From a virus (taxonomy: Duplodnaviria; Caudoviricetes): DNA of 47,163 bases. The stretch's first letter is position 1; every line of letters starts with the position of its first letter. This document shows, one piece after another, positions 3,020 to 27,080 of this stretch. Where the stretch lies: positions 1 through 47,163 of the IMG/VR virus record IMGVR_UViG_3300022871_000776; one strand, written 5' to 3'. Made by a program: the position numbers and the translations under genes. The notes beneath the pieces were generated by a model. It was not told where the DNA came from. It did no database searches and saw only the letters and a list, made by a program, of their open reading frames with translations.

Positions 3020-3056
3020 ATAGAGATACTATGAATAACATAATAGGAGGTTATAA

Positions 3057-4562: not shown

Positions 4563-4563
4563 T

Positions 4564-6405
4564 ATGAAATTATCAGATTATGTAATAAAGTTTATCGAAG
4601 AGGCGGGAGTAAAAGATATATTTATGTTGCCTGGTGGTGGCTGTATACATTTGGTCGATTCTGTAAGGAAAAGCAATTTGAATTATATATGTAATTTACA
4701 TGAACAAGGAAGCAGTATTGCCGCAGAGGCATATTCGCAATATACAAATAATTTAGGAGCGTGTTTGGTAACGACTGGGCCCGGAGGAACAAATACCGTT
4801 ACAGGTGTGGCTGGTGCTTGACTTGATTCAATACCTATGATATTTATATCGGGGCAAGTTCCGATAAAAGATAGAACTTTCGGATTAGCAAGACAAGGGG
4901 GATTTCAAGAAGTTGATATAGCCGCCATTGTTAAGCCAATTACAAAATATGTAGTGAGAGTCAGTAACCCACTTATGATAAAGGTACATCTAGAAAAAGC
5001 ATTATATGAAGCGACCAACGGCAGGCCAGGCCCTGTATGAATAGACATTCCGTTAGACGTACAATCTGCACAAATTATTCCAGAAGTTTTAAATGGATGA
5101 GTTGAGCCAGAAAAGGTCGGCATGAATACGAAACAATCAGTAACAGACATTATAAATGATTTAAATTTTGCAAAGCGACCTGTTATTTTGGCAGGTAATG
5201 GTATTAGATTATCAAAATCAGTTAAAGATTTCTTACAGTTAGCAGATATATTAAAAATACCTGTATTAACGACTTGAAAGGCAATTGACTTCTTTGACGA
5301 GAGCCACCCTTTATATATTGGTAGGCCGGGTCTTGTTGGGCAAAGAGGCGCAAACTTTTCACAACAAAATTCTGATTTCGTACTTAGTATAGGTGCAAGA
5401 TTAGACTTAGGCCAGACAGCGTATAAGCCAGGATATTTTGCTCCGAATGCCAAAAAAGCAATAGTTGATGTTGACCCAAATGAAATTGCCAAAATACAAA
5501 AAAATACTTACTTGCAAACTGGCGACGAAGAAAAAAAAAGGTCAGGAGATGAAAATAGAATGAAAGTAGATTACTCAGTCGAAGCTGATGCCGGTGAATT
5601 TATTAGAGAATTTATTGAGCAAAGCGGAATGCTTACTGCTGATTATAGTAATTGAGTTAAAGAGTGTAAAAGATTACACGAAAAATACCCAATATGTTTG
5701 CCTGAATATTGAAAAGAAAAGGACGGCGTTAATAATTATGTTTTGGTTGAAGCTTTGTCCAGAATTGTCTCAAATGATGTCGTGATTATTCCAAGCAGTT
5801 CCGGCTGTTCAAGTGAGGTAACAATGCAATCATTTAAGGTCAAAAAAGGGCAAAGAATATTTAACACGCCAGGTTTGGGAGCTATGGGGTACGGTATTCC
5901 TGCCGCAATTGGAGCTTGTGTGGCAAGTGATGGAAAAGAAACAATTTGTCTTGATGGTGATGGTGGTTTTATTATGAATATTCAGGAGCTTGAAACTGTT
6001 AAAAGATTGGGCTTACCAATTAAATTTTTTATATTAAATAATGAAGGGTATGTTTCAATACGCAATACGCAAAATAGTCACTTCGACGGTAAGCTTATTG
6101 GTAGTGACAAAGATAGTGGATTGACTCTTCCCGACTGAAAGAAGATTGCAAACGCATTTGGAATTCAATATACGTCAATAGACAGTCATAAAAAAATAGA
6201 CAAACAACTCGAAATTATTTTGGACATTCTGGGCCCTGTAATATGCGAAGTCAAAATGTCATTTGAACACACTACGGCACCGAAAGCGTCCATTTATAAA
6301 AAAGATGATGGGACTTTTTCTACAAAACCAATGGAAGATTTGGACCCGCCGTTAGACAGAGAAGAGTTTGAGGAAAATACAAAATGATGCAATCATTATT
6401 GATAA
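4564..6405 (+). CDS. thiamine pyrophosphate-dependent enzyme (acetolactate synthase-like / YerE-like) (TGA=Trp)
   Basis: LHEQ, TTGPGGTN, GRPGPV-W-IDIPLDVQ, GAMGYGIP and GDGGF...LNN TPP motif. It ends at 6387 if the TGA in the ATGA overlap terminates, otherwise at TAA 6403-6405. Confidence 0.85.
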
Positions 6406-7229
6406 CAGGTGGTGATGGATTCATAGCAAGACATTGCAAAGAATATTTTAAAGACAGATATAGAGTGTTTGCCCCGAACAAATATGAGCTTAATTTAATG
6501 AATTTCGAAGAACTTAAAGAATGATTTTCTTGAAACCATATTGATTACGTTATACACACGGCAGTTTATGACGCACAAACAACATTTGGCAATAAAGATA
6601 AAAATAAAGTATTCTTAAATAACATGCAGATGTTTATGAATTTGGCCAGATTACAGAATTCATTTGATAGAATGATTTATTTTGGTTCTGGTGCCGAAAC
6701 GCATATGGGGCAAGTTAGCAATTCACAGTATTCACTTGCGAAACAAACAATGACAAAATATATCGAAATATCAGAGAATAATATTTTCAATCTAAGATTG
6801 TTTGGGGTGATGGGAGAGTTTGCCGATTGAAGATATAGAATCCCAGAAAACTTAATTTGCAAAGCAATATATGATATGCCTTTGTATGTACCAAAAAATA
6901 AGATGTTTTCTTATATAGACGTTATCGACTTAATGAAAATTATAAATTTAATTTTAGAAAAGAAAGAGCTTGAATATAAAACGTATAATTGTGTTAATTC
7001 AAATTTAATAAATTATCAAGTATTTATAGATAAATTATTGAAACTTTCTCATAAAAAATTAAAGATAGACATAAAAAGTGATTATATACTTTATGAAGGC
7101 AATAATACAAATTTAATTAATGAATTTCCAGAGCTTGGATTTACAGAACTTGATGATACTATTGGAAGATTATTAAATTATTATTTGGCAAACAAAGACA
7201 AAATAGATATAAATAAATTTGAATATTAA
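6384..7229 (+). CDS. NAD-dependent epimerase/dehydratase (TGA=Trp)
   Basis: LITGGDGFIA, FGSGAE, YSLAK (YxxxK), LRLFG. Confidence 0.85.
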
Positions 7230-7239
7230 GGAGATTAAA

Positions 7240-8355
7240 ATGATAATAGACAATGAGTTTAAGAAGACTGAAACATATAAACGTGATTATTTAAAAAGAG
7301 AAAAGCCCTATGTGTATGAAAAAATGTTAAAGTTTGGCGACAAACTTAAGAATGGTGAGAGCATAGCAATTATACAATTCCAATATAATTTTAAATGTAA
7401 CTTTAAGTGCGTACATTGCTCAATAAAAGGATTTCAAGGAAATTTTGAAGAGAAAAAATCTTATACGATTAATGATGTAAAGAGGTTATCAAAAGAAGCT
7501 GATGAATTAGGACTTGCAAGATTTGTAATAACTGGCGGAGAGCCATTAATTTTTTCAGACCTTGACGATTTAATTGCGGCAATTGACCCGCAAAAGTTTT
7601 ACATTAATCTTGACACAAATGGTTGGCTTTTAGATGATGCAAAGGCAAAGCACTTAAAAGAAATAGGAGTCGACAGAATTCAATTAAGTATAGATAGCCT
7701 TGACGCAAAAGAACACGATGATTTCAGAAGAGCGCCAGGCTCATATGTACGCTGTCTAAGAGCAATTGACGCCGCAAAAAACGCCGGATTGGACATTTTT
7801 ATACAAACGGTAGTTACGCACTCAAGACTTCATTCGCAAGAGTTTATTGATTTTATCAAATACTTTAATGAAAAAGATGTTACGGTATTTGTTAGTTATG
7901 CAAAACCAGTTGGGGCTTGGGAAGGACATTATGATGAATTGGTTTCAATGGATGATATAAATTATTTTAAAGAAATGGAAAAAGAACATAACATTTGCAC
8001 TCACTTAACTTCCGCTTACGGTAGAGACTTGGGCTGTATTGCAGTTAAAGGTATGATTTCTGTAACACAATATGGCGATGTGATGCCTTGCCCATATATT
8101 CATACATCTATAGGTAATGTTTTTCACGAGCCACTAAAAGATATTATACAACGTGGATTTGATATTAAATTTTTTGGAGAGTGGGCCGACACATGTTGGA
8201 TAGCTGAAAATATGTCGTTTATAAAAAATTATGTTGCTAAAAATATATATGGTAAAGAATTACCAGTTTCAAGTGACCAAGTTTTCGGTGATAAGGATAA
8301 GACAAAAATTCCCTTTAATGAAACAATGATAAAAGAAAATAAGTTTTCTGATTAG
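7240..8355 (+). CDS. radical SAM/SPASM-domain protein
   Basis: CNFKCVHC, TGGEP, TNG, C-x-GDVMPC; AGGAG RBS before ATG 7240; all four Trp codons are TGG. Confidence 0.85.
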   Translation: MIIDNEFKKTETYKRDYLKREKPYVYEKMLKFGDKLKNGESIAIIQFQYNFKCNFKCVHCSIKGFQGNFEEKKSYTINDVKRLSKEADELGLARFVITGGEPLIFSDLDDLIAAIDPQKFYINLDTNGWLLDDAKAKHLKEIGVDRIQLSIDSLDAKEHDDFRRAPGSYVRCLRAIDAAKNAGLDIFIQTVVTHSRLHSQEFIDFIKYFNEKDVTVFVSYAKPVGAWEGHYDELVSMDDINYFKEMEKEHNICTHLTSAYGRDLGCIAVKGMISVTQYGDVMPCPYIHTSIGNVFHEPLKDIIQRGFDIKFFGEWADTCWIAENMSFIKNYVAKNIYGKELPVSSDQVFGDKDKTKIPFNETMIKENKFSD

Positions 8356-8364
8356 GAAGATAAA

Positions 8365-9351
8365 ATGAAAAGATGTAAAATTTGTAGTGCAAAATTAGTA
8401 AGCTTTATTGATTACAAAAAACAGCCAAGTAAAGCACAACATTTGCCGAACATGAAAATGTTACAAAGTGATTTTGATATTCCATTACATATTTTTGAAT
8501 GTACTGGATGCGGAACTGTACAGCTTGTAACAGATCCAGTATCGTATTATTCTCAAGCGATTAGGTCGCCAGATTGGAATATAAACCCCTTTAGAAAAAA
8601 ACAACGTAGTAAATTTATTAAAGAATTTGAACTTGAAAATAAAATAATTAAACAAATTAATAGAGAACCAAAAGAAGACAGTTATGATGCTTTTACAATG
8701 TTTAATTATTTAGAACATTTCCCATCTCCAAAAGATACATTGAAACAAATTTGCAACAACCTAAATGATAATGGGGTAGGCATTGTTGAAGTACCTAATT
8801 TTGATGAAATCATTCGTGACCGTATTTTTGGCGAATTCATTATTGACCATTTATTTTATTTTACAGAAAAAACTTTAAGATTTGTTTGCGAAGCAAGTGG
8901 GTTTGATGTTATTAAAATAGAAGAAATTTGGAATGGAGCAAGTTTATCCGCAACAGTAAAAAAGCGTCCGTTATTAAAGCCAATATTGTTTAGAGAAAAC
9001 GAAATAGAACTAATTGGAGATATTGATAATTTTGCAAATCAATTTAAGTCGGTAACGTTTTGAGGTGCAGGGCATCAAACACTTATGATACTTTCAATGA
9101 TGAAAACAATACATAAGGTATCATACATCGTTGATGATTTTAAGGTAAAACAATTTTTATATACACCCGTTACACATAAGGAAATTTTACCAAGCAATAC
9201 ACTTCTTACAAACCCAACTGATGCTATTATAATAATGGTTGGCTGACAATATAAGAATGTTCTTAAACGCCTTAGAAATCTTAATTTAACACAAATGCCA
9301 AAAATAGCCTTAATAAAAAAAGCAACATTAGAGATTTATGAAGATATATAA
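8365..9351 (+). CDS. NDP-sugar C-methyltransferase-like protein with N-terminal Zn-binding domain (TGA=Trp)
   Basis: CKIC...CTGCGTVQL, YLEH, VEVPN, DHLFYF, W-GAGHQ, VDD..KQ. The glycine-rich SAM motif appears to be missing. Confidence 0.7.
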
Positions 9352-9369
9352 ATAATATTAGGAGGTTAT

Positions 9370-9657
9370 ATGAGTAAGACAAATTTCACAAGACTTAAAA
9401 TTAATGACAAAGAAGATATTGGCAAGGTAGTTAAACACGAACTTGACAATGGATTTGACAGACGTACTGGCGAGCAAATGAAATTGCGTGAATATTACAT
9501 TACGTATGAGGCCACAAGAACCGTAGAGGACAGTATGGTAGTCGAGGCATACAATGAATGTGATGCGATACATATGGCACGTGAAGAGGTAACGATGTTT
9601 GACGATGTTGAAGGCTTTACAATTGTAGAAATTACAGTGGAGGATTACGATGATTAA
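9370..9657 (+). CDS. hypothetical protein
   Basis: GGAGG RBS, 95 aa ORF. Confidence 0.6.
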   Translation: MSKTNFTRLKINDKEDIGKVVKHELDNGFDRRTGEQMKLREYYITYEATRTVEDSMVVEAYNECDAIHMAREEVTMFDDVEGFTIVEITVEDYDD

Positions 9658-9835
9658 TATGAAAAAATTAACAAATGAAATTGAACAAATTTTGAAACAT
9701 GCTGGTAAATTAAAAATGAATTTTGATTCAAAGTCCGCAATTGATTTTTACACACAAACAATAATGCAAGCGGTTAAGAAGGCAGAACATGACGCAATAT
9801 TAGAAACAAGTAAGAAAGCAGAAAGTGGATATTAG
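9650..9835 (+). CDS. hypothetical protein
   Basis: GGAGG RBS, overlaps the upstream gene. Confidence 0.55.
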   Translation: MINMKKLTNEIEQILKHAGKLKMNFDSKSAIDFYTQTIMQAVKKAEHDAILETSKKAESGY

Positions 9836-9842
9836 TAGGGTA

Positions 9843-10367
9843 ATGAAAGAAAATGTTAAAATAATTGTTGGCAATATTGAAGACCAAGATACTCAAGTAA
9901 TAGTTAATCCAACAAATGCAGAATTAATTTGAGAAGATGAAACCTGTAATGGTGTCATTATGAATAAAGTTGGAATGCAATATTATCATGAATGTGAAAA
10001 ATTTATTGACAGAAATGGCCCATTAGATATGAATGAAATATTCTGATGGAGGGGTGGAGATTCGGATGCCGAATTTATATTAAATATTTATCCACCATTT
10101 TGACAGCCAGCTAATTCCGTTGAAGTCAATGTAGAAAATTTATATGATTGTTATTACAAATGTTTTGAAGTATGTAAAGAAACTGGTAGAACAAAATCAA
10201 TATCGTTTCCATTAATAGGCTCTGGAACATTTATGTATCCAATTAGAACATCATATAAATTATTAGAAAATGTAATTAATGATATTGACGTATCAATGTT
10301 TGGCGAAATTAGAATTGTATTTTGGAAAAAAGAGCAGTATAATTTATGCAGACATTTATTTGAATAG
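9843..10367 (+). CDS. Macro domain (ADP-ribose-binding) protein (TGA=Trp); absent from the ORF track
   Basis: IIVGNIEDQDTQVIVNPTN and SISFPLIGSGTFMYP match the macrodomain GDI/IVNAAN and SIAFPxISTG motifs; three TGA. Confidence 0.75.
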
Positions 10368-10375
10368 GAGGGTAA

Positions 10376-10675
10376 TTGAGAAAGACGTTCAGAGAACATG
10401 ATGTAAAAATTCATGTTAAAGATAGCACCGAAAGTAAAATAGTTCAGAAAAAACTTTTTGAGTTAGGCTATCATTGGCAACAAGATAATTACGAATTTAA
10501 TTATGTAGACGCCCCACATTTATATATTGAAAAGTACAACAAACAAATATTTTTTAGCACATACAATTCTTACTTTGAGAGTAGTGATTATAAAGAAGTA
10601 ACAGTTGCGCAACTAATGTCCCCAGAAATTTGTTATGATATTAGAGGCAATGTGGTAAGAAGAAGTAATGCTTAA
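10376..10675 (+). CDS. hypothetical phage protein, paralog of 10668-10955
   Basis: GGAGG RBS with TTG start; SKIVQKKLFELGYHW. Confidence 0.65.
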   Translation: MRKTFREHDVKIHVKDSTESKIVQKKLFELGYHWQQDNYEFNYVDAPHLYIEKYNKQIFFSTYNSYFESSDYKEVTVAQLMSPEICYDIRGNVVRRSNA

Positions 10676-10955
10676 AAATTATAAATTTAATCCAAAATCG
10701 GAACAGCAAAGTAAAGAAATGCAAAAGTTATTATTCAGTATCGGCTATTTTTGGATCAATAACAATGGCTATAACACTTACTCTTATACAAATGCGAAAT
10801 ATTTATTCACATACAGCGATGGTTCTTTAACATATGCCGATTATGCCGAAGATTTTTCCCAAAGTTCCCATCAGTATATGACACTCGATCAATTACAAAT
10901 TTATGCTTTACATCCAAGTCAAGCTTATACAATTTATGGCAAAGAAATAAATTAA
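10668..10955 (+). CDS. hypothetical phage protein, paralog of 10376-10675
   Basis: SKEMQKLLFSIGYFW; similar C-terminal YxIxG. Confidence 0.65.
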   Translation: MLKNYKFNPKSEQQSKEMQKLLFSIGYFWINNNGYNTYSYTNAKYLFTYSDGSLTYADYAEDFSQSSHQYMTLDQLQIYALHPSQAYTIYGKEIN

Positions 10956-10962
10956 AATAAAC

Positions 10963-11002
10963 TTGACAAAACTTCATAAAAGAATACTATAGTAAAGTAA
11001 GT
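10963..11002 (+). promoter_or_regulatory. sigma70-type early promoter P1
   Basis: TTGACA-N16-TACTAT-AGTAAAG-TAAGT. Confidence 0.75.
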
Positions 11003-11050
11003 GAGAGAGAGTGAAAGAGATAAAAAAAACAAATCATAAAGGGAGAAATT

Positions 11051-11416
11051 ATGAGTTATATTTCAACAGAAGACGTTAGAGCAAAAAGAATAAAAATTAA
11101 AAAAACATTTCCAGGATTCAAATTTTCTATTACATGCCAACGCCACTCAAGCATACATGTATCTATATTGGAAGCCCCAATTAATATGCTTACTGGCGAC
11201 AAAGAATATGAATCCGTTAATCATTTTTACATTGAAGATCATTACAAAGAAACTCCAGAAATAATGGAAATATTATTGAAAATTAAAAACATACTTTCAA
11301 AAGGTCAACATGAAATTGTTTATGATGGCGATTATGGTTCCGTACCAAACTTTTATATTAATATTAGTATTGGAAGCTGGGACAAACCATTTAAAATCAA
11401 AGGAGAGAAAAAATGA
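11051..11416 (+). CDS. conserved phage protein (LPD29-like); apparently terminated by TGA
   Basis: KKTFPGFKFS...DGDYG...INISIGSWDKPF; ends in an ATGA overlap with the next gene. Confidence 0.65.
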   Translation: MSYISTEDVRAKRIKIKKTFPGFKFSITCQRHSSIHVSILEAPINMLTGDKEYESVNHFYIEDHYKETPEIMEILLKIKNILSKGQHEIVYDGDYGSVPNFYINISIGSWDKPFKIKGEKK

Positions 11417-11868
11417 GTAAAATTTCAATATCTGATGTAATAAATAATCCAGAAAATTTAAACCATGATGATTGTTGGTCGTTTTATGATTGGTTCTGCA
11501 ATAATAGTTCTTTAGAGCGAAGAGCAAAACAAATTATACCCAAGCTTAAATTTTTAGTTGCACAAGACATTTTGGACGCAAAAAATACTTATGTATGGTT
11601 AAAAAACAATTGCCCAATGAATGGTAGTTTGTATGATGATTTTCGAATTAGTGCTATCAATGATGATGAAACATTTCTTGGCGGATTCTGTCCCAAAACT
11701 GGAATCAATAATGTTGAAAATAAATGTGAAGTTTGGTATTTCGAAGGTTCGGAACGAAACATAATTCAGTTAGAATTTGTTAATTGGATGGCATTCAAGA
11801 AAGAATTAAAAACAAACATAGAATTGAGAAATAAATTAATCGAAGCATTTAAAGTAAAAATAAAATAA
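11413..11868 (+). CDS. hypothetical phage protein
   Basis: AGGAG RBS; FYDWFC, YVWLKNNCP..GSLYDDFRI; five TGG, no TGA. Confidence 0.7.
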   Translation: MSKISISDVINNPENLNHDDCWSFYDWFCNNSSLERRAKQIIPKLKFLVAQDILDAKNTYVWLKNNCPMNGSLYDDFRISAINDDETFLGGFCPKTGINNVENKCEVWYFEGSERNIIQLEFVNWMAFKKELKTNIELRNKLIEAFKVKIK

Positions 11869-11875
11869 AAAAGAT

Positions 11876-11916
11876 TTGGCAAAATCTCTCAAAAAACTAT
11901 AGCAGTAAAGATAAGT
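11876..11916 (+). promoter_or_regulatory. sigma70-type early promoter P2 (variant)
   Basis: TTGGCA-N16-TATAGC-AGTAAAG-A-TAAGT. Confidence 0.5.
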
Positions 11917-11923
11917 TAAAATA

Positions 11924-12011
11924 TTTTACCTGAAATAAGTATTGGTAAAAAAAATCAAGTTTCCTTTACCTATCTTGAGGATTGGTAAAAATAATGTGTT
12001 TTTCTTTACCT
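11924..12011. repeat. 40-bp periodic array of TTTACC-N13-GGTAAA inverted repeats (about 2.2 units)
   Basis: TTTACCT at 11925, 11965, 12005; ATTGGTAAAAA at 11941, 11981. Confidence 0.8.
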
Positions 12012-12057
12012 GAGAAGGTTGTCAGATGAAAGAAAAAAAAATAGCCAGGAGGCAAAA

Positions 12058-12261
12058 ATGAGTAATAATTCAGGTAGTAGCAGTAATAGTAACGGAACAG
12101 GGTTTTTTGGTTTATTGACCATAGCCTTTATAGTATTGAAATTGACGAAAGTAATTGATTGGAGTTGGTGGTTAGTATTGTTGCCCTTTTATGGCAGTAT
12201 TATATTTGGGCTATTAATTGTTGGACTTATTTTTTTAGGTGTTCGTTTGACAGATAAATAA
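12058..12261 (+). CDS. small two-TM phage membrane protein
   Basis: GGAGG RBS; GFFGLLTIAFIVLKLTKVIDWSWWLVLLP is a recurrent phage membrane family. Confidence 0.75.
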   Translation: MSNNSGSSSNSNGTGFFGLLTIAFIVLKLTKVIDWSWWLVLLPFYGSIIFGLLIVGLIFLGVRLTDK

Positions 12262-12269
12262 AAAAAGAT

Positions 12270-12310
12270 TTGACAGAAAAAAGATAAAAAGATAATATAG
12301 TTTCATAAGT
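12270..12310 (+). promoter_or_regulatory. sigma70-type early promoter P3
   Basis: TTGACA-N17-TAATAT-AGTTTCA-TAAGT. Confidence 0.75.
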
Positions 12311-12362
12311 GATGTTTAAGAAATGATAAATAAAAAAAAATAAAAATCAAAAAGGAGAAAAA

Positions 12363-13199
12363 ATGATTTATACAAAAAAAGACGTTATTGAAATTCTTGA
12401 GAATTTGAAAGTTTATGAAAAGTTAGTTTGGGATGTAAAAAATAATGACACGAAAGCTATTGATGGTTACAAAGCAATTCGTATGAAACGAAGTGATGAT
12501 TTAGTTCGTATCGTTTCTCCAGATTATAGTGTAATTCAGCATATTGACGCTTTTAATCAAACTATTGAAGATTTAGATAAATTAAATCTTACCTATGTTA
12601 TCCGTGAAGTCTATCTTAATGATTTTGCAACTCGCAATAACAAACGTCGTAATTCTTTCCAAGTGACCTTCGAATTTCCAGAACTGAGCTTTAATGTCGA
12701 TGGTAGTCCAATTAATGCTACTCTTGAGTTAATGAACTCTAATGACACAAGCTTAATGTTCACTCGTAAATTTGGCGCTTACCGTGCCGCTGGCAATAGC
12801 ATTATGAATACTGGTAAAAAATTATTCTATGAACGTTTCAAACATGTTGGTGAAAATACATTTGGCGATATGGCTGATGCTGTCGAGCACCTTCCAGAAT
12901 TCTTGAAAATCTTTAGCAAAGTTATTGCAAAAACTATGCTTGTTCGTACTGACAACGCAATCACTCGTGGACTTACTGAGCTTGGTTTTCCAAGTCGTTT
13001 GATTGACAATCTTGAAATTGCAAATGAGAAGTATTCCGACCTTGTTGGCGAAAAAGCAAGTCCTGATCAACTCTGGGGAGTTTACAAAATTCTCACTAAT
13101 TGGTTGACCAATGTAGTTGCTAAAACTAACCTTGAGCGTGCTGACCGACTTGGCAATGCTTTATACCGTTTCGTTCAAATGAAAATAATCGGCATATAA
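12363..13199 (+). CDS. DUF932/DUF945-family protein
   Basis: VSPDYSVIQH..AF, LMNSNDTS, GAYR..GN, FKHVG and QLWGVY match the family pattern. Confidence 0.65.
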   Translation: MIYTKKDVIEILENLKVYEKLVWDVKNNDTKAIDGYKAIRMKRSDDLVRIVSPDYSVIQHIDAFNQTIEDLDKLNLTYVIREVYLNDFATRNNKRRNSFQVTFEFPELSFNVDGSPINATLELMNSNDTSLMFTRKFGAYRAAGNSIMNTGKKLFYERFKHVGENTFGDMADAVEHLPEFLKIFSKVIAKTMLVRTDNAITRGLTELGFPSRLIDNLEIANEKYSDLVGEKASPDQLWGVYKILTNWLTNVVAKTNLERADRLGNALYRFVQMKIIGI

Positions 13200-13216
13200 T
13201 TGTTAATAATATATTT

Positions 13217-13243
13217 AGCGGGAGTTTTTCTCCCGCTTTTTTT
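13217..13243 (+). terminator. rho-independent terminator
   Basis: AGCGGGAG-ttttt-CTCCCGCT followed by a T tract. Confidence 0.85.
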
Positions 13244-13244
13244 A

Positions 13245-13284
13245 TTGACAAAAATAAGTAAGTTATTATTATAGCAAAGTAAGT
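13245..13284 (+). promoter_or_regulatory. sigma70-type early promoter P4
   Basis: TTGACA-N16-TATTAT-AGCAAAG-TAAGT. Confidence 0.75.
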
Positions 13285-13305
13285 TAAATAAAAAGGAGAT
13301 ATAAA

Positions 13306-13476
13306 ATGAAAATTAAAACAAAGATAGCGTTTGTAATTCCAGCGGGAATCATTGTAAATGAAAAAATGATGATATGGATTAAAAATAATTGTATTAAATT
13401 TCCAGATTATGATTTGCCAGATTATGATCTGCCAGATGGTTTTGAGGCTTTGTTTCCTAACTTTAATAAAAAATAA
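13306..13476 (+). CDS. small hypothetical protein (56 aa) with PDYDL repeat
   Basis: Own promoter and AGGAG RBS; 15-bp tandem CCAGATTATGAT(T/C)TG. Confidence 0.6.
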   Translation: MKIKTKIAFVIPAGIIVNEKMMIWIKNNCIKFPDYDLPDYDLPDGFEALFPNFNKK

Positions 13477-13483
13477 AATAAAC

Positions 13484-13523
13484 TTGACAAATCCACCAAT
13501 AAGAATACTATAGTATAGTAAGT
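13484..13523 (+). promoter_or_regulatory. sigma70-type early promoter P5
   Basis: TTGACA-N16-TACTAT-AGTATAG-TAAGT. Confidence 0.75.
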
Positions 13524-13543
13524 TAAATAAAGGAGAGAAAAAA

Positions 13544-15925
13544 ATGATACCAAAAAGCATTAAAAGAATTGGGGAAGTTTTCGGTGGAAAAAAGAATACA
13601 AATTCTGCATTCTGGATTCCTAAAAATGTTAAAGATGCCTTTAACAAAGAAAATTTAACTAAAGGCCAACAATCTGCCAATGAAGGCGAAAATGCTGGAT
13701 TTACTTATATTTTGCAACTTGCCGAAATTAAAAGGGCTATAAAAAACTTTGTACAAATTCTTACAAACAAAAACATACCCGTTAACTATCTAGCGGGAGA
13801 ACGTGGTGGATTTACTGATGGCAAAAGTGTTTATATTTCTGGCGATATTGATGAAGATTTAAACTTTGATAAAACTGTTGGACTTGCTTTGCATGAGGCG
13901 TCACATATTGTTTTGTCTGATATAGAACAGCTTAAAGCTATTCAATTTGAAGATGTTACAAAACGAATTTTTGATACCGTTGGTGCTGTTCGCAAGGCGT
14001 TTGCAAAACATGTTAGAAATACAAAAGATTCCACATTTTCAAAAGAAAAAATTAATTATGAAATGTATGCTATGAATTTGAAAAACCTTTTAAACTGGGT
14101 CGAGGACAGACGTGTTGATGCCTACATTCAAAAAGATAGTCCAGGTTATGTTGCTTACTATCAAGCACTTTACGATGAATATTTTAATACAAAAGAAATT
14201 AAAGATATTATATACAGTCCAAAATCTCGTACACCAATTTTTGAAAATTATATGTTTCATGTTGTCAATCTTATTAGCATTCATTCAGATGAAAATGCTT
14301 TACTTGGATTAAAAGAAATTAAAGATTTGGTTGACTTCAATAACATTCTTAGATTAAAAAGTATGAATGATTCTTTTAAAGTTGCTGTTAAGATTTTCGA
14401 AATTATTCTTAAGAATATAGATTTAAGCCTTCAAAAACAAAAAGAAAAAGAAATGCTTAAAAAACTTCAAAAAGAAGCGAAAAAAAATAGCAAAAAATCA
14501 ACGAAAGGCAAACAGCAAAAAAGTTCGGGCGGTGGTCAACAAATTCCAATGGATGACGACGAAGATGAGGATCAAGACGACCAAGATAATGATAATGATT
14601 CGCAAGATAATGATTCGCAAGATAAAAAAGATAATGATTCGCAAGATAAAAAAGGTAAAGATAAAAAAGATAATGATGACAAAGATGGTTCTGGCAAAGA
14701 TAAAAAAGATAATGATGACAAAGATGGTTCTGGCAAAGATAAAAAAGATAATGATGACAAAGATGGTTCTGGTAAAGATAAAAAAGAAGTTGCAAAAAAC
14801 AAAAAACAAAAAAAAGACAAACCTGGCAAGTATGATGATGCGAACGCAAAAGCCGTAGCCAAAGCAGTAAATGATGCATTAGATAACATAAAAACATTGT
14901 TAAACCATGAAATTGAAAAACAAGAACTTCCAAGTGGTATTTCTAACAAAATTCATTCATTATCAGGAATGAAAGTTAGAACTAAAGAAATTACTATGAC
15001 ACATTCAAGAGTAGGTTCAATTAAAACAAGGGTAATTTTAGTTCCAGAACTTACAAAATCATTGATAGACCAAAACATGCTTCCAATTACAACTACTTAT
15101 GGCGATTATAACGATGATTCTATTAAAGAGGGAACTAATATTGGCAAAAAACTTGTTAATAAAATCAAAATCAGAAACGAAAGTAGAAGCCTTATAACGC
15201 CAAGACAAAAAACTGGAAGATTACAGCAAAGAAACCTTGCTGATTTATCATATGATTCTGAAAACGTTTTTTACAGATTAACTTCGGAAGAGTTTAAAAG
15301 TATGCATTTTCATATTTCAGTGGATGCGTCTGGTTCGATGGCTGGTCGTAAATGGGCTGAAACTATAAAACTTCTTACTTCAATAACTTATTCTGCATGT
15401 AAGATTAAAAATATTGATGTTGTTGTTGACTTTAGGTCATGGCTTAATACGGGTGGCATCAGTAATACCCAAACCTATTTTCCATTTGTACTTACTGCAT
15501 TTGATTCAAGGACTCAATCGTTTGCAACTTTTTGTGAATTAATTAAGCATGTTACAGCCAACGGAATGACACCAGAAGGAATGTGTTTTCAGGCTATGTT
15601 GGACGAATATGTTCCTGGTACTCAGCAAAAAGATAGTGTATTCATAAATATTTCTGATGGAAGTCCTGGCTGTACAGTACAATATAATGATGGAAATATA
15701 ATTAGTTCTGTAAATTATAGTAGTTTTGGAATTAAACATACCGCTGAAATTGTGAAAAGGATTAAAAAAATGAATATAGAAGTTATTAGTTATTATATCA
15801 ATTCTGGTTGGGGCGACGATATTGAATACTTTAAAAAAATGTACGGTCGTGATGCAAAACAAATAAGTCCGAATGATGTTATACAAATTGCAAAAAGCAT
15901 TAATGAAAAATTATTGAGAAAATAA
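13544..15925 (+). CDS. VWA-domain protein with N-terminal HExxH domain (CobT-like partner of a MoxR AAA+)
   Basis: TDGK, LHEASH, NWVEDRRVD, acidic linker, MIDAS DASGSM, GMTP, ISDGSP. Confidence 0.8.
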   Translation: MIPKSIKRIGEVFGGKKNTNSAFWIPKNVKDAFNKENLTKGQQSANEGENAGFTYILQLAEIKRAIKNFVQILTNKNIPVNYLAGERGGFTDGKSVYISGDIDEDLNFDKTVGLALHEASHIVLSDIEQLKAIQFEDVTKRIFDTVGAVRKAFAKHVRNTKDSTFSKEKINYEMYAMNLKNLLNWVEDRRVDAYIQKDSPGYVAYYQALYDEYFNTKEIKDIIYSPKSRTPIFENYMFHVVNLISIHSDENALLGLKEIKDLVDFNNILRLKSMNDSFKVAVKIFEIILKNIDLSLQKQKEKEMLKKLQKEAKKNSKKSTKGKQQKSSGGGQQIPMDDDEDEDQDDQDNDNDSQDNDSQDKKDNDSQDKKGKDKKDNDDKDGSGKDKKDNDDKDGSGKDKKDNDDKDGSGKDKKEVAKNKKQKKDKPGKYDDANAKAVAKAVNDALDNIKTLLNHEIEKQELPSGISNKIHSLSGMKVRTKEITMTHSRVGSIKTRVILVPELTKSLIDQNMLPITTTYGDYNDDSIKEGTNIGKKLVNKIKIRNESRSLITPRQKTGRLQQRNLADLSYDSENVFYRLTSEEFKSMHFHISVDASGSMAGRKWAETIKLLTSITYSACKIKNIDVVVDFRSWLNTGGISNTQTYFPFVLTAFDSRTQSFATFCELIKHVTANGMTPEGMCFQAMLDEYVPGTQQKDSVFINISDGSPGCTVQYNDGNIISSVNYSSFGIKHTAEIVKRIKKMNIEVISYYINSGWGDDIEYFKKMYGRDAKQISPNDVIQIAKSINEKLLRK
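14591..14787 (+). repeat. coding tandem repeats: 15-bp DNDSQ x3 and 39-bp KDKKDNDDKDGSG x3
   Basis: 39-bp units at 14657, 14696, 14735; 15-bp units at 14591, 14606, 14630. Confidence 0.95.
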
Positions 15926-15965
15926 TTGACAAGTTTGATAAATATAATATAGTAGTTACATAAGT
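15926..15965 (+). promoter_or_regulatory. sigma70-type early promoter P6
   Basis: TTGACA-N16-TATAGT-AGTTACA-TAAGT. Confidence 0.75.
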
Positions 15966-16017
15966 GATAAGAAAATAATGAATGAAAAAAATAATAAACA
16001 AAATAAGGGAGAAAAAA

Positions 16018-17121
16018 ATGAAAGTTACTGCAATGATTACAAAGTCAATCAGTGGAGCATTTAGAGTTGTAGGCCTGGATGACAACAAAGATTATTCAGG
16101 TTTAATTTCGGCCAAAGTTATTGAAAGGGCACACAAGGGAAATAAACTTATTGAGTTTGATCCTAATTCCAAAAAATATCAAAATTCTAAATTTATTTTG
16201 GCATCAAGAATTACATATCTTGACGATGATAGAACAAAAGAGAAAAAGGTTGATAATGCAACTTCCTTTATTGTGGGGGCGGTTGAGAATAAACCTTCAT
16301 TTTTGAAATTTGACCGAACCAAATGGGCAATGTTAGCAAGAAACATTTATCGTCAAACGGCAAGTTTAATTGTTGGGCCAACAGGCAATGGCAAAACAAC
16401 TTCTGCCATTGAGCTTGCAAAATCTGTAAGTAGACCTTATTTTGTTTTTAACTTAGGCTCCACTCAAGACCCACGCACATCGTTAATCGGCACAATGGCT
16501 TACGATAAAGAAAAAGGTACTTACTTTAAAAAAGCAAACTTCATTAAAGCCTTGGAAACAGAAAATTCCGTTATTGTACTCGACGAGATTTCTCGTTCCC
16601 ATCCAGAAGCCTTCAACATTATTCTTCCTTTACTTGACTTTCAAAAGACAATTAGAATTGAAGAAAATAATGAAATCGTTAATGTTGCTGAAGGCGTTTC
16701 GTTTGTTGCAACAGCAAACATCGGCATGGAGTATACTTCTACAAGAATTCTTGACCGTGCGTTGGTTGATAGATTTGTACGTATTGATGTTGGCTTTTTG
16801 GATCGTGATCAAGAGTCCTCAATTTTAAATAACTTGTATCCTGGACTTTCTGAAATGCAAGTTAAAGCCTTGACAAGCCTTACAGATATTGTACGCCGAG
16901 ACCTTCAATCCGAAAGTCCTCGTGTGCAAACTCATATTTCAACTCGTATGCTTATTAACACTGGCGGACTTGTTGCTGATGGGTTCTCATTGGAAGACGC
17001 TGTAAAAGAAACTATCCTAACTCATTTCGAATCAGAAGGCGGTGCAGATAGCGAACGTACTTTTGTCGCCCAAGCTTTCCAAAAGGCTTATGACAAATCA
17101 AAAGATATTCCAAGAATATAA
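16018..17121 (+). CDS. MoxR/CbbQ/CobS-type AAA+ ATPase
   Basis: Walker A GPTGNGKT, Walker B VLDE, ATAN, LDRALVDRF, ISTR. The start could alternatively be 15982. Confidence 0.85.
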   Translation: MKVTAMITKSISGAFRVVGLDDNKDYSGLISAKVIERAHKGNKLIEFDPNSKKYQNSKFILASRITYLDDDRTKEKKVDNATSFIVGAVENKPSFLKFDRTKWAMLARNIYRQTASLIVGPTGNGKTTSAIELAKSVSRPYFVFNLGSTQDPRTSLIGTMAYDKEKGTYFKKANFIKALETENSVIVLDEISRSHPEAFNIILPLLDFQKTIRIEENNEIVNVAEGVSFVATANIGMEYTSTRILDRALVDRFVRIDVGFLDRDQESSILNNLYPGLSEMQVKALTSLTDIVRRDLQSESPRVQTHISTRMLINTGGLVADGFSLEDAVKETILTHFESEGGADSERTFVAQAFQKAYDKSKDIPRI

Positions 17122-17196
17122 ATTGATGCGGGGTTATCTCCCTTTCGTCGCATCAATAAAGTATGCCGTGAGTCAATTTCACGGCATACGTTTTTT
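17122..17196 (+). terminator. tandem hairpins / terminator closing the early island
   Basis: ATTGATGCG...CGCATCAAT (17122-17157), then GTATGCCGTGA-gtcaatt-TCACGGCATAC plus a T tract. Confidence 0.8.
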
Positions 17197-17364: not shown

Positions 17365-17580
17365 ATGTATTTAAGAAAATTAATTGGAATACCAATTGAG
17401 AATAGACCAGCCGCATTTTTGCAAGTTATTGAAAGGTATAAGGATGTCCTAAAGAATGAAAAGAATTTAGAAAAATTTATTTTAATTTATCCCGAATGGG
17501 CTTTAGAATTTCAATATGTTGATAAATTAAAATTAGCAATCTTGGGAACAAAAGACGATATACCTAAAATTGATAACTAA
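17365..17580 (+). CDS. hypothetical protein
   Basis: AGGAG RBS, 71 aa. Confidence 0.55.
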   Translation: MYLRKLIGIPIENRPAAFLQVIERYKDVLKNEKNLEKFILIYPEWALEFQYVDKLKLAILGTKDDIPKIDN

Positions 17581-18200
17581 TATTTTTTTAACATTTTTCA
17601 CGAATGTGGGGCGACAGTTTTTAATATATTTCCGATTGCTTTAGCATACTCTTGAACTTCTCATTGAGCGTCCGATTTAATTCTTAATTTATACATTCTT
17701 GCATATGAAGCCAAATTTGCTGTTTCAATAAAGGTTGTATACATTGCTTGCGGTAATATTATTCTTGCCTGTTCTGGCGACACTCCATTTAATAATAACT
17801 TTTCATATAAGTTAATATTTTTTTCGTAATGCATCGCAATATCATTATATAAAAATTCTTTATCCTTAATGTTGGTTAGTACTTGTGGGAGATAAAATTC
17901 TGGAAGGTCTGTAATACTTCGCCTTGATTCTTCATTCCTTGAAAATCCAACTTGTGATTTAAAATATTGCCTCGCTATGAAGATTGGCATTTTTATTTTC
18001 AATTGTATCGTTACATGGGAGAACGGAGTTCAGTGATGTCATTCTGCTAAATTTTCAATTAATTTTTTATCTCTTTGAGATAAAGATTTACTTTTTTTAT
18101 TTTTAGAAATTTTTGCTGTATTAACTACGGTTAGGTCATTGCCCATACTATCCATTAACTGGACGAATCCTTTATCTAACACTATCTTCTTATTATACAT
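17577..18200 (-). CDS. thyX: flavin-dependent thymidylate synthase (TGA=Trp)
   Basis: VLDKGFVQL.DSMG.DLTVVN, H-W-TPFSH, PIFIARQ, NEESRR, GVSPEQARIILPQ, DAQ-W-EVQEYA; four TGA. Confidence 0.85.
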
Positions 18201-18406: not shown

Positions 18407-19579
18407 TTGGGAAAAGATAATTTTAAATGATTAGTATTGTTGTCTGCAATGGCAATAGTAGGTATGTCAGGATATTATTCCGTTTTTGGGATAAGTTCCT
18501 TGTTTGCCGGTAAAAGGTTGTTTGCGGGAATTATGGCAGGGTCATTAGAGGTTGGCAAAATAGTAACCACAACTCATTTAACGAGAAATTGAAAGAAAAT
18601 AGGCAATGCATATAAAACTTATTTTATAATAGCAACAGTTATATTAATTATAATTTCATCTGCTGGTATTTATTCATATTTGACAGAAGCCTATCATTTA
18701 ACGGCTCAAAAAATGAAAGTAGTTGATACAGAATTAGGAACATTAAGTTCTGAAGAACAATCACTTGTAAGTGAAAAGGAATTATTAATTCAGGATAGAA
18801 ATTCTTCTCAAGAAGAAATTAATTCATTGCGGATATTAATAGATAATAATGAAACAAGAAAAACTGATCTATATCGAGCAATGAATGCAGACACAACAGG
18901 AACGGTAAATTGAAATGCAAGTATTTGAAAATTCAATAAAGACAACGGAGAGTACAGAGAAAATATTTCTGATTTACGAGACATAAAACAAAATGCAACC
19001 CTTAGAATCACGGATATAGACGTAAGGTTAAAGGAAATTTGAACTCAGAGTGGCAAGGTAGAAACATCCGACGAAGCGTCAAACATTGGGCCATTAAAAA
19101 AGTTATCAGAATTATTTGACGTTGATATGGATACGATTGTTAAATTTTTTATATTTATATTAATTATAGTTTTTGATCCATTAGGTATTCTATTAATTGT
19201 ACAATTTAATAAAATGACAGTTCCAGAAAATATCACAAAATATAAAAAAAATGAAAGAATGAAAGAAAAGACTATATATACTGGAGTTGATGTTGAAAAC
19301 AAAAAGATAAAGGACAAAAATAATATGGAAAAAATAAACATACAATCTTACAAAGTTCCAGACGAAGATGATGATTATGTTATTAATGTTGATTCTGCCG
19401 TCAATAAGGTAGTAAGCAATGAAACAGAAATTATTGAAGAAGAAATAATAAAAAATAAAATTGACAATATTAGTGAAATAGTTAATATTGAGTCAATAAG
19501 TAAAGAGGCGAATGTTCCCAAGTCTGATGCACCATCATTCAAAAAAGATGTATCGCACAAAGGAATTAGGGTTTCATAA
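18407..19579 (+). CDS. conserved phage membrane protein with coiled coil (TGA=Trp)
   Basis: AGGAG plus TTG start; YYSVFG..LFAG, LEVGK, RN-W, SSAGIYSYL, IGPLK, IVFDPL. Confidence 0.7.
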
Positions 19580-19817: not shown

Positions 19818-20396
19818 ATGAAAAAAAAAGTATTGAAGAAAATTATATTAATTTGTCTTGTTTTGATTTCTATTTTTTGGGCATATACAATTTTTAATTT
19901 GAGTGCCGAGAATACACAACTAAAGCAGGATTACAAGGCTCTTGATAAGCGACTCGAAAATGTTGAGGCGGAATGGGATAGCGTTCACGTATTGACAACT
20001 AAAATTACAGAATTGGCACCGCCAAAAGTTGATAGACTCTCAAAGAAGAAATTAGGATTTTATATTCATTACTTTGGAAAGAAATATCAAGAAAGTGAAA
20101 TTATTAAAGACATTATGATTTCGTTGCCATATATAGAATCAACATATTATAAATATGCTGTTGGGTTGGCTGGCGAATTGGGATATTATCAAATACATCC
20201 AATTCATAATTTGGATATGACAAGAGTATTCGACGAAGATTATCAAGTAGAAAATGCTTATAAAATTTTAATGCGAAATGTTGAAAGGCATGGCGAATTA
20301 GAACATGCGGTAAATGGTTATAATGGCTGGCCTTCTACAAAAAATCCTTATTACGGCAAAGTCGTTATACAATTAGCAAAATTAAAAAATATTTAG
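19818..20396 (+). CDS. membrane-anchored lytic transglycosylase (SLT)-like protein
   Basis: N-terminal TM and coiled coil, then IES, GELGYYQI and YNG motifs of the SLT fold. Confidence 0.65.
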   Translation: MKKKVLKKIILICLVLISIFWAYTIFNLSAENTQLKQDYKALDKRLENVEAEWDSVHVLTTKITELAPPKVDRLSKKKLGFYIHYFGKKYQESEIIKDIMISLPYIESTYYKYAVGLAGELGYYQIHPIHNLDMTRVFDEDYQVENAYKILMRNVERHGELEHAVNGYNGWPSTKNPYYGKVVIQLAKLKNI

Positions 20397-20405
20397 AAGG
20401 TAGTT

Positions 20406-20885
20406 ATGGTAAAAAGAAAAGTTAAAAAGTTTCATAAAATTTTTTGTACTGATTGCAAACGAAGAATTGAAGTTGATATAGGTGTCAAAGCAATTCTATG
20501 TGGAAATTGCACAATGAAAAAAATGCTTAAAGAATATGGCGTACCAAAAGGTGCATTACCAAAGCAAGACAAAGGCCCAGCAAAACCACCAGGTTGGCAT
20601 TTCTATAAAGAATTTGTTGATAAAGATGGCACAGTATATCACAAAGGTGTAGAGCAACCAGAACTAAAAGATACAAAAAAACCAACAAAAATTAAACCAA
20701 TTAAAAAAAAAGCGAAAGCATTATCTGATAATGACAAATTGAAAAAACAAAGAGAAATTTTCAAAGAAATTGAAAAGAGTAAAAAAGCATTATCTACATT
20801 AATTAAAGCTGGCAAAAAACGTGGCAAAGTTGGGTTGCAAAAGAAAATAACAAAATTACAAAAAGAAGTTAGAAAGTACTTATAG
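20406..20885 (+). CDS. basic hypothetical protein with Zn ribbon
   Basis: CTDC...CGNC; GWHFYKEFVDKDG.VYHKG. Confidence 0.7.
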   Translation: MVKRKVKKFHKIFCTDCKRRIEVDIGVKAILCGNCTMKKMLKEYGVPKGALPKQDKGPAKPPGWHFYKEFVDKDGTVYHKGVEQPELKDTKKPTKIKPIKKKAKALSDNDKLKKQREIFKEIEKSKKALSTLIKAGKKRGKVGLQKKITKLQKEVRKYL

Positions 20886-20895
20886 GAGATTACAG

Positions 20896-21054
20896 ATGAA
20901 TATAGATTTAGACGAGCTATTAGAAAAATTAAAAACAGCATTAGCTGAGGAAGATTGAACATTGGTTGAGGAATCAATTGATATGTTATGGCAACATTTA
21001 CATGAAGAAGGCGCAATTGAATTTGCAGAAGAAAACGGATTTTGGGAGGAATAA
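20896..21054 (+). CDS. small acidic protein (TGA=Trp)
   Basis: AGGAG RBS; EED-W; TAA abuts the next ATG. Confidence 0.55.
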
Positions 21055-21762
21055 ATGAAATTAACAGATGATGAAATTATTGATTTATATAAAGAATTAG
21101 ACGCATATATTGATGAATATTTAGAAGAAAAACAAGCAAGAAAAGTATTTGCTTTAATGAAAAAATATGAAGACCAAATATTAACCGCACCAGCATCTAC
21201 AAGAACGACTTATCACGGAGCATATCCAGGCGGATGGTTAGTACATGTATTAAATGTTATTAGATTTGCACTCGAAACACATGGTGTTTGGGAAACTATG
21301 GGACTTGATATTGACTTCACAAAAGAAGACATTGTACTTGTGTCAGCTTTAAGTTTCTTTGGCAAATTAGGATTAGATGAAGAGCCTTATTACATTATGC
21401 ATCCACAATTCTCAACACGATTTAAAGCAAGAACAAAAAAGGTAAAAGCATATTGGGAAACAATTCTTTATACCGTTAATGAAAACTTACCTTACATGAA
21501 AGTGCCAGAATTAACATTGCACATTTTGCAGAAAGAAGGCATTGAACTTAGTCTAGACCAACATTTGGCGATTAAATTATCAGAAGGTATTTTTGATGAA
21601 TCAAATAAAGTTTATTTCGCCAACTCATTTAGTTCCAAACCAACTCCCAAACTTGTGATGTTATTAGTGATGGCAAACTGGATGTCAATTACTTTTGAGA
21701 AAGAGGAAGAGACCGATGGCAAAAAAGACGAAGCATTAAAAAAACTAATGGGAGCATTATAA
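21055..21762 (+). CDS. HD-domain (YhaM-like) protein with degenerate active site
   Basis: APAS...YHGAYPGG...H is present, but LSFFGK replaces the expected HDxGK. Confidence 0.65.
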   Translation: MKLTDDEIIDLYKELDAYIDEYLEEKQARKVFALMKKYEDQILTAPASTRTTYHGAYPGGWLVHVLNVIRFALETHGVWETMGLDIDFTKEDIVLVSALSFFGKLGLDEEPYYIMHPQFSTRFKARTKKVKAYWETILYTVNENLPYMKVPELTLHILQKEGIELSLDQHLAIKLSEGIFDESNKVYFANSFSSKPTPKLVMLLVMANWMSITFEKEEETDGKKDEALKKLMGAL

Positions 21763-22055
21763 TGGAAATAATTATTGCGGGATTGATAATTATAGTTATA
21801 TTATTACTAATAGCTGTATCAAATATGAATAAGAAATTGGTAAGATATGAAGATTGAACAATAGAAATGAGAAAGCAAATATACAAAATGTTTAATACTA
21901 TTAAAGTTCTTGACAATAAGCAAATGTTCGAGAAAGATGATGATGTGGGTCGCTTATGAGAAGCAATAAAAGAAACTGTAGATAAAATTGATGCGTTTGT
22001 TGTTCCTGATGGAGTGGAAGACGAAGAAGAAGACGAAGAATTAATAATTGAATAA
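21762..22055 (+). CDS. membrane-anchored hypothetical protein (TGA=Trp)
   Basis: N-terminal TM; FEKDDDVG; two TGA; TAATG coupling. Confidence 0.65.
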
Positions 22056-22065
22056 TGGAGGAAAT

Positions 22066-24253: not shown

Positions 24254-24255
24254 AA

Positions 24256-25428: not shown

Positions 25429-25434
25429 GATATT

Positions 25435-25899: not shown

Positions 25900-25910
25900 G
25901 GGGATAGTAA

Positions 25911-26135: not shown

Positions 26136-26143
26136 AAGACGTA

Positions 26144-26458: not shown

Positions 26459-26472
26459 ATATAGGAGTTATA

Positions 26473-27078: not shown

Positions 27079-27080
27079 TA

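What the first reader, a model, noticed from the sequence alone, without database searches (positions are those of the whole stretch)
10376..17121. Two genetic codes in one genome: a TGA-free, host-promoter-driven early island inside a TGA=Trp phage (candidate temporal code switch)
Seen: the nine genes here contain 21 Trp codons, all TGG, whereas flanking genes use TGA for a large share of Trp. At 50% usage the chance of 21/21 is about 5e-7. The island holds all six TTGACA-type promoters I found, ends in a double hairpin, and one gene (11051-11416) ends on TGA in an ATGA overlap. Known: some phages recode stop codons while infecting standard-code hosts. Inference: the host reads TGA as stop, the island is expressed immediately, and structural, glycan and thyX genes are translationally locked until the phage supplies a TGA suppressor and/or disables RF2. 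Factors that flip the code may be encoded here or in other TGA-free genes.
Basis: partly seen in the sequence, partly recalled or inferred. Interest (0 to 1): 0.92.

Follow-up and report, generated by a model that had tools for sequence, protein, structure and literature searches.

The report
Phage early island avoids recoded TGA
A large salt-lake phage spells many tryptophans with the stop codon TGA but keeps it out of a nine-gene block that sits behind host-type promoter motifs and includes an anti-CRISPR homologue, likely so that these genes work before the phage changes how the host reads TGA, a pattern already described in gut phages.

Summary
TGA encodes Trp in this phage fragment. The nine genes at 10376-17121 have 0 TGA and 21 TGG, against 105 and 71 in the other 60 genes (p 3e-8). 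A relative about 70% identical keeps the same core TGA-free (0 TGA, 9 TGG; next gene 9 and 1), so this is not a recent import. Six promoter motifs lie in the island and a seventh outside, ahead of a second TGA-poor zone. The ATGA overlap proves nothing, because two genes with many in-frame TGA codons have one too. Gene 11413 is an AcrIIA11 anti-CRISPR homologue by sequence and fold, which fits immediate-early expression. Best reading: an early block readable by a standard-code host, with TGA genes waiting for phage-supplied read-through. This pattern is published for gut phages (Borges; Pfennig), and this scan has noted it before on other DNA. New here: a salt-lake clade of Immutovirus-related phages, recoded apparently once among standard-code kin. 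Host, timing and the switch factor remain unknown. No suppressor tRNA, release factor or TrpRS was found in the 47 kb seen of a genome of at least 138 kb.

The parts
10376..10675 (+). Small hypothetical protein, PHROG 17589 family (TTG start); 1 TGG; lies upstream of the first promoter motif
10668..10955 (+). Paralogue of 10376 (PHROG 17589); 1 TGG
10963..11002 (+). Promoter motif TTGACA-N16-TACTAT-N6-TAAGT
11051..11416 (+). LPD29-domain protein; 1 TGG; ends on TGA in an ATGA overlap (read-through adds 8 aa)
11413..11868 (+). AcrIIA11 anti-CRISPR homologue, 151 aa; 5 TGG; activity untested
11876..11916 (+). Promoter motif variant TTGGCA...TAAGT
12058..12261 (+). Small hydrophobic protein (PHROG 1374); 3 TGG
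12270..12310 (+). Promoter motif
12363..13199 (+). DUF932-like protein, conserved island core; 3 TGG; all 14 Arg codons are CGY
13217..13237 (+). Terminator-like hairpin with T tail
13245..13284 (+). Promoter motif
13306..13476 (+). 56-aa hypothetical protein; 1 TGG
13484..13523 (+). Promoter motif
13544..15925 (+). 793-aa partner of the ATPase (PHROG 1576); HEASH and DASGSM motifs suggest metallopeptidase plus VWA domains (labels recalled, no Pfam hit); island core; 5 TGG
15926..15965 (+). Promoter motif
16018..17121 (+). MoxR/CbbQ-type AAA+ ATPase, island core; 1 TGG
17122..17189 (+). Double hairpin; the second is terminator-like on both strands
49..10367 (+). Upstream flank: nucleotide-sugar enzymes, radical SAM, methyltransferase, macro domain; 38 TGA, 17 TGG
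17577..18200 (-). thyX, 4 TGA and 0 TGG
19461..19501 (+). Seventh promoter motif, inside the 3' end of gene 18407; whether it is used is unknown
19818..23605 (+). Second TGA-poor zone (3 TGA, 16 TGG), ending at a terminator-like hairpin at 23631-23656
23774..46746 (+). Baseplate (gp25, J-like) and other probable virion genes; 54 TGA, 37 TGG

Best explanation
This phage uses TGA for tryptophan in about half of its genes but keeps it out of a conserved nine-gene block, likely because that block is made first, by a host that still reads TGA as stop. Shown: TGA = Trp, the TGA-free block, its conservation in a diverged relative, the repeated promoter motif and the anti-CRISPR homologue. Inferred steps: (1) host sigma70 polymerase transcribes the block right after DNA entry; (2) its anti-defence and take-over proteins must be full-length under the standard code, so TGG-to-TGA changes are purged there; (3) a factor encoded elsewhere in the genome, most likely a tRNA-Trp that reads UGA, then allows read-through; (4) thyX, glycan and virion genes, where TGA and TGG interchange freely, become translatable after that. 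The switch is probably soft, since island proteins are the same under both codes.
For: TGA columns align to W in standard-code relatives in 509 of 1184 cells (TGG control 449 of 1017; Gly 20). Island 0 TGA/21 TGG against 105/71. Relative L082 (66-71% nucleotide identity) has the same three core genes in the same order, 0/9 over six genes, and its next gene has 9/1 (p 1e-4). At window TGG sites where code-4 relatives keep Trp, they have TGA in 21 of 26 cells outside the island and 0 of 7 inside (cells not all independent). A near-identical strain changes TGG to TGA at 10323, just outside the island; 50 changed codons inside it in L083 create none. The promoter motif recurs in L082 (2 exact, chance 0.01) and directly precedes LPD29 genes in other phages. 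11413 matches AcrIIA11: E 3.7e-11 alone, 6.5e-26 by profile, Z 11.2 with rmsd 3.2 over 129 residues, next hit Z 5.2; an archaeal-virus study shows an Acr works only if made early. Six small island genes have no clear core-type codon bias yet 0 TGA/12 TGG. 69 of 74 non-identical baseplate relatives are standard-code and the code-4 rows form one clade (SH-aLRT 88, quick tree). The published model fits.
Against: The host is unknown, and code-4 bacteria now include Patescibacteria lineages. No suppressor tRNA, release factor or TrpRS was found in the window or tied to this clade in two tRNA(UCA) scans. No gene was shown to need TGA as a stop: at 11416 read-through adds 8 aa, and homologues only weakly favour the short form. 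The first gene behind the seventh promoter motif has TGA at codon 8. 24 of 60 outside genes have no TGA, including a putative transglycosylase, whereas Borges found lysis genes preferentially recoded. Relatives' structural genes use TGA for 78 of 98 Trp codons, as high as in whole code-4 genomes (80-90%). Outside the island TGA use falls with core-like codon bias (rho -0.42, p 0.012, n 35), which also fits simple expression-level selection.
Confidence: 0.7

Rival explanations
1. Efficiency, not timing: the host is standard-code, UGA read-through stays inefficient throughout infection, and strongly expressed genes purge TGA while weakly expressed ones tolerate it. The island is simply the most highly expressed block.
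For: Core island genes have a distinct codon bias, and TGA share falls with that bias outside the island (rho -0.42, p 0.012). The second zone is a mosaic.
Against: Small island genes lack the bias but still have no TGA. Content (anti-CRISPR homologue, LPD29) and promoter motifs point to early timing. The base after TGA shows no read-through-friendly bias beyond controls.
Confidence: 0.12
2. The host itself uses table 4, the phage matches it, and TGG is preferred in the island only because the host's tRNA-Trp(CCA) is better supplied.
For: The clade uses Shine-Dalgarno motifs (35 of 53 genes; relatives 27 of 39) whereas the standard-code relative G004 does not (14 of 202), which suggests a host change. 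Table-4 Patescibacteria exist. No suppressor tRNA was found. No gene outside the island needs a TGA stop.
Against: Complete exclusion in two diverged phages (0 of 30 Trp codons) at 31% GC is hard to get from a preference. Only 36 of 69 genes carry TGA, inside the 26-71% range Borges gives for phages of standard-code hosts. Table-4 bacteria are under 1% of species.
Confidence: 0.12
3. The island is a recent import from a standard-code phage and has not yet gained TGA codons.
For: The small genes are mobile: LPD29 and AcrIIA11-like genes have relatives in unrelated phages and are absent from the 6.7-kb piece of L082. This may hold for some of them.
Against: The core has orthologues at 59-79% identity across the clade and is TGA-free in L082. 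The ATPase and its partner are already in the standard-code relative G004, near the same downstream gene order. Flank Trp codons have toggled over similar distances.
Confidence: 0.04

Closest known systems
TGA-recoded (code 4) gut phages, e.g. Agate and Jade clades (Borges et al., bioRxiv 10.1101/2021.08.26.457843; parts 1-4 of 6 read)
   Same: TGA = Trp in structural genes, part of the genome free of TGA, low GC, close standard-code relatives, and the proposed early standard-code phase followed by a code change. Suppressor tRNAs were detected in only 35% of their code-4 genomes.
   Different: Different lineage and habitat (23 of 24 listed runs are salt-lake metagenomes, 1 marine). Here thyX and glycan genes are recoded and a putative transglycosylase is not. 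Host and code-change module are not found.
Dual-coded blocks in crAss-like phages (Pfennig et al., Mgcod, bioRxiv 10.1101/2022.06.29.495998; part 1 of 4 and passages read)
   Same: One block gives nearly the same proteins under either code and is enriched for early genes; a soft switch is proposed.
   Different: Their code switch follows a strand switch; here it is a 6.7-kb island on the same strand as the recoded genes, marked by promoter motifs. Not a crAss-like phage by its gene matches.
Flavobacterium phage vB_FspM_immuto, Microcystis phage Mel-JY01, uncultured phage LR756508
   Same: Nearest named relatives: baseplate protein 42-51% identical over full length; the ATPase 40-45% in two of them.
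   Different: The regions checked of Mel-JY01 and LR756508 are standard-code; the immuto phages were not checked for code. The complete relative G004 lacks Shine-Dalgarno motifs and the promoter motif.
AcrIIA11 (Forsberg et al., PMC6739867, passages read; PDB 9utm)
   Same: Shared YDWFC and KNNCP-G-LYDD motifs and the same fold over 129 residues.
   Different: 151 aa against 182, 24% identity over the structural alignment, below the paper's high-confidence cut-off. Homologues also sit in Vibrio and Dinoroseobacter phages, so it does not identify the host.

Membership tests
Stop-codon-recoded phage with code-neutral early block (Borges/Pfennig) | Coding density rises by more than 10% under code 4 | tested here: met
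   0.65 to 0.94
Stop-codon-recoded phage with code-neutral early block (Borges/Pfennig) | TGA aligns with Trp, not Gly | tested here: met
   W 509, G 20 of 1184 aligned cells
Stop-codon-recoded phage with code-neutral early block (Borges/Pfennig) | Structural genes carry in-frame recoded codons | tested here: met
   gp25-like 1, J-like 2, 33097 10; region 54 TGA/37 TGG
Stop-codon-recoded phage with code-neutral early block (Borges/Pfennig) | A block readable under both codes | tested here: met
   0 TGA/21 TGG, conserved in L082
Stop-codon-recoded phage with code-neutral early block (Borges/Pfennig) | That block is expressed early | tested here: inconclusive
   Indirect only: promoter motifs and gene content; no expression data
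Stop-codon-recoded phage with code-neutral early block (Borges/Pfennig) | Host uses the standard code | not testable with these tools
   No spacer search available; the one GTDB hit is a 45% relative on a 6.4-kb contig
Stop-codon-recoded phage with code-neutral early block (Borges/Pfennig) | Suppressor tRNA, RF1 or TrpRS in the genome (found in a minority of known cases) | tested here: inconclusive
   None in 47 kb; genome at least 138 kb; two scans not linked to this clade
Stop-codon-recoded phage with code-neutral early block (Borges/Pfennig) | Lysis genes preferentially recoded | tested here: inconclusive
   The only candidate, a weak SLT match at 19818 (E 5e-4, under cut-off), has 0 TGA/3 TGG; its role is not established
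Code-25 phage of Gracilibacteria/Absconditabacteria | TGA = Gly | tested here: not met
AcrIIA11 | Sequence and fold homology | tested here: met
AcrIIA11 | At least 35% identity over 75% of the 182 aa (paper's high-confidence set) | tested here: not met
   24% over 129 aligned residues; local match covers residues 24-86; cut-off
AcrIIA11 | Inhibits Cas9 | not testable with these tools
   needs a plasmid-protection or cleavage assay

The most novel reading that the evidence does not exclude
This clade turned TGA into Trp as it moved to a new host type, and it flips the code without a canonical suppressor tRNA, using a factor made from the conserved early core (the DUF932-like protein with the ATPase and its partner) that disables or bypasses the host's UGA release factor. 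Against it: the ATPase pair is also in standard-code relatives, and most of the genome was not seen.
Probability: 0.05. Interest if true: 0.8.

Novelty: new member of a known kind. Interest (0 to 1): 0.33.

Why it matters
It extends split-code phages from gut surveys to a salt-lake lineage whose standard-code relatives include cultured phages, with an apparently single origin of recoding. The sharp, conserved border makes TGA absence a practical marker for early anti-defence genes, and here it led to an AcrIIA11 homologue that can be assayed. It does not by itself settle the open question of how and when such phages switch the code.

Tried and rejected
Own genome not held; end-walking scans found 0 contigs, and the eight near-identical contigs compared lie within the window. 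tRNA(UCA) motif scans gave 9 and 55 loci; none matched this clade. G012 carries a tRNA(UCA) and an RF-1-domain gene but matches only 1 of 69 window proteins and reads as standard code. A promoter-motif scan gave 65 loci, none a new piece of this phage. Rfam gave 0 matches. Full-length relatives in the protein collection do not prove absence of TGA, because the collection holds code-4 translations. The +4 base after TGA differs no more than controls. No 5' placement of TGA: first Trp 20 of 27, later 76 of 114. A position-weight promoter scan trained on 10 sites did not beat shuffles. A recalled sigma-factor resemblance for 22290 got no support. The DUF932-like model was low confidence (pLDDT 54). 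No RNA holder listed. Contigs laid from four runs listed only 40 of 1138 differences, too few to use. One search included one mis-framed gene; counts were redone.
Full report
1. What the window is. It is a 47-kb piece (31% GC) of a large phage. Coding cover is 0.65 under table 11 and 0.94 under table 4. It holds nucleotide-sugar enzymes, a macro domain, thyX and baseplate genes. Its proteins occur on contigs of up to 138 kb, so most of the genome was not seen; no whole genome was held. Of 24 listed runs that hold the island region, 23 are salt-lake metagenomes and 1 is marine; 17 are flagged as possible sources of this DNA. The nearest named relatives by the baseplate protein are Microcystis phage Mel-JY01 (51%), uncultured phage LR756508 (44%) and Flavobacterium immuto phages (42.5%).

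2. TGA means Trp. Against standard-code relatives, window TGA positions align to W in 509 of 1184 cells and to G in 20; TGG positions align to W in 449 of 1017. W is the majority residue at 12 of 30 TGA sites. A near-identical strain has TGA where the window has TGG at 10323.

3. The island is real. Nine genes hold 0 TGA and 21 TGG; the other 60 genes hold 105 and 71 (Fisher p 2.9e-8). The run of 23 TGG codons is reached by 0 of 50000 codon shuffles and 60 of 50000 gene-order shuffles. Composition does not explain it: GC3 is 0.23, other A/G codon pairs are not shifted towards G, and off-frame TGA is not depleted. A seventh promoter motif lies at 19461, outside the island. A second zone, 19818-23605, has 3 TGA and 16 TGG, and 13 of 49 Trp-containing outside genes lack TGA. 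The ATGA overlap also ends genes 2121 and 4564, which hold 6 and 7 in-frame TGA, so it cannot show that TGA is a stop. LPD29 homologues from 14 loci end 7-13 residues after the last conserved Trp in 12 loci and 74 in 2; the window protein ends after 11 if TGA stops and 19 if read through. That is weak support only.

4. The island is maintained. L082 is 66-71% identical at the nucleotide level. It has orthologues of 12363, 13544 and 16018 in the same order, six genes with 0 TGA and 9 TGG, and a next gene with 9 TGA and 1 TGG. At window TGG sites where code-4 relatives keep Trp, they use TGA in 21 of 26 cells outside the island and 0 of 7 inside (p 2e-4). Those cells are not all independent, and the inside count rests on one relative. 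The ATPase and its partner are also in the complete standard-code relative G004, which matches 19 of 69 window proteins, mostly in the same order. Of 79 baseplate loci, 5 are near-copies of the window, 5 are code-4 relatives and 69 are standard-code. In a quick tree of 31 of 57 distinct sequences (all code-4 rows, every second standard-code row) the five code-4 rows form one clade with SH-aLRT 88; the careful search did not finish.

5. The island looks early. Six intergenic gaps carry TTGACA (once TTGGCA), a -10-like hexamer about 16 bases on, and TAAGT 28-30 bases after the first hexamer. The pattern was drawn from these sites, but it recurs twice in L082 against 0.01 by chance and stands directly before LPD29 genes in other phages. 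A weight-matrix scan was inconclusive. The block ends in a stable double hairpin. Core genes use CGY for Arg and little ATA, while the small genes mostly resemble the flanks. Gene 11413 has 455 homologue clusters. Its model (pLDDT 96) matches AcrIIA11 at Z 11.2, rmsd 3.2 over 129 residues, with the next hit at 5.2, and the sequence match is E 3.7e-11. It falls below the published high-confidence cut-off and its activity is untested. An archaeal-virus study shows that an Acr protein works only when made early (10.1101/2023.01.10.523387, passages). 12363 is DUF932-like on weak evidence, and 16018 is a MoxR/CbbQ-type ATPase.

6. The switch was not found. The window has no tRNA, no Rfam match and no release-factor or synthetase match. 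Two scans for tRNA(UCA) gave 9 and 55 viral loci, none tied to this clade. Borges detected suppressors in only 35% of code-4 genomes, so absence from a third of a genome says little. The host is unknown. Shine-Dalgarno motifs precede 35 of 53 window genes and 27 of 39 in code-4 relatives, but only 14 of 202 in G004, which suggests a different host type from that relative's (inference).

7. Mechanism. Most likely (0.70) the host reads UGA as stop at entry, host polymerase expresses the island at once, and selection keeps it free of TGA; a phage factor encoded elsewhere then allows UGA read-through. Codon facts and conservation are shown; host code, timing and factor are inferred. Rivals: selection on expression level without timing (0.12; rho -0.42 outside the island), a table-4 host (0.12; such Patescibacteria are described in PMC13695967, passages), and recent import (0.04). 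Results against the lock reading: 24 of 60 outside genes have no TGA, a putative transglycosylase is TGA-free, the first gene behind the seventh motif has TGA at codon 8, and relatives' structural genes use TGA for 78 of 98 Trp codons.

8. Novelty. The model is in print. Borges et al. (bioRxiv 10.1101/2021.08.26.457843, parts 1-4 of 6) propose early standard-code genes followed by a code change. Pfennig et al. (10.1101/2022.06.29.495998, part 1 of 4 and passages) describe dual-coded early blocks and a soft switch. I also saw passages of PMC13037316, PMC10746230, PMC6739867 and PMC12022753; Yutin 2021 and PMC13462651 only as listings; Ivanova 2014 only as cited by others. Searches for non-gut code-4 phages gave 0, 4 and 1 papers; I read passages of two of the four distinct papers and saw no account of this lineage there. 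Nine papers mention Immutovirus once each and were not opened. The library is incomplete and preprint supplements were not seen, so an earlier listing of this clade is not excluded. Earlier notes of this scan report the same pattern in other genomes, one of them marine; they are unchecked and not used as support. Verdict: a sound new member of a known kind, interest 0.33.

Noticed in passing
window 11413-11868: AcrIIA11 homologue of a family with 455 clusters at 50% identity and no Pfam model; homologues in Vibrio and Dinoroseobacter phages are annotated as hypothetical.
   Followed up: partly
window 19461-23656: Seventh promoter motif inside gene 18407, followed by a TGA-poor run and a terminator; possibly a second early or middle unit. 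The orthologue of 21055 is TGA-free in L011 (0/4) but that of 22290 has 2 TGA.
   Followed up: partly
window 22290-23189: Recalled resemblance to a phage sigma factor; Pfam and PDB sequence searches gave no support. Conserved in G004.
   Followed up: partly
window 2768-3019: 83-aa gene that repeats the C-terminal part of the dehydratase at 1166-2119; looks like a partial duplication.
   Followed up: no
window 7240-8355: Radical SAM/SPASM gene with 0 TGA and 4 TGG inside the TGA-rich glycan cluster; chance or a recent import.
   Followed up: no
window 14580-14790: Tandem low-complexity repeats in the 793-aa protein whose number varies between strains (793, 780 and 746 aa forms).
   Followed up: no
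window 25911-26473 and 38332-44654: Many small genes start with an MKKSE(I/V)R..I.EE-like leader; code-4 relatives and G004 have similar ones.
   Followed up: no
L081 against window 10031-10280: A strain lacks about 250 bases of the macro-domain gene next to the island.
   Followed up: no
G012:C1 about 83175-85980: Unrelated, apparently standard-code 147-kb virus record with a tRNA(UCA) and an RF-1-domain gene within 3 kb.
   Followed up: partly
L103 9911-10057: Two adjacent tRNA(UCA) genes in an unrelated 95-kb viral contig.
   Followed up: no
L093 7490-7861 (G004): The standard-code relative carries a predicted tmRNA gene.
   Followed up: no
window 17195-17366: A 48-codon open frame without a usual start codon, with one TGG and no TGA, just after the double hairpin; may be a small gene.
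   Followed up: no
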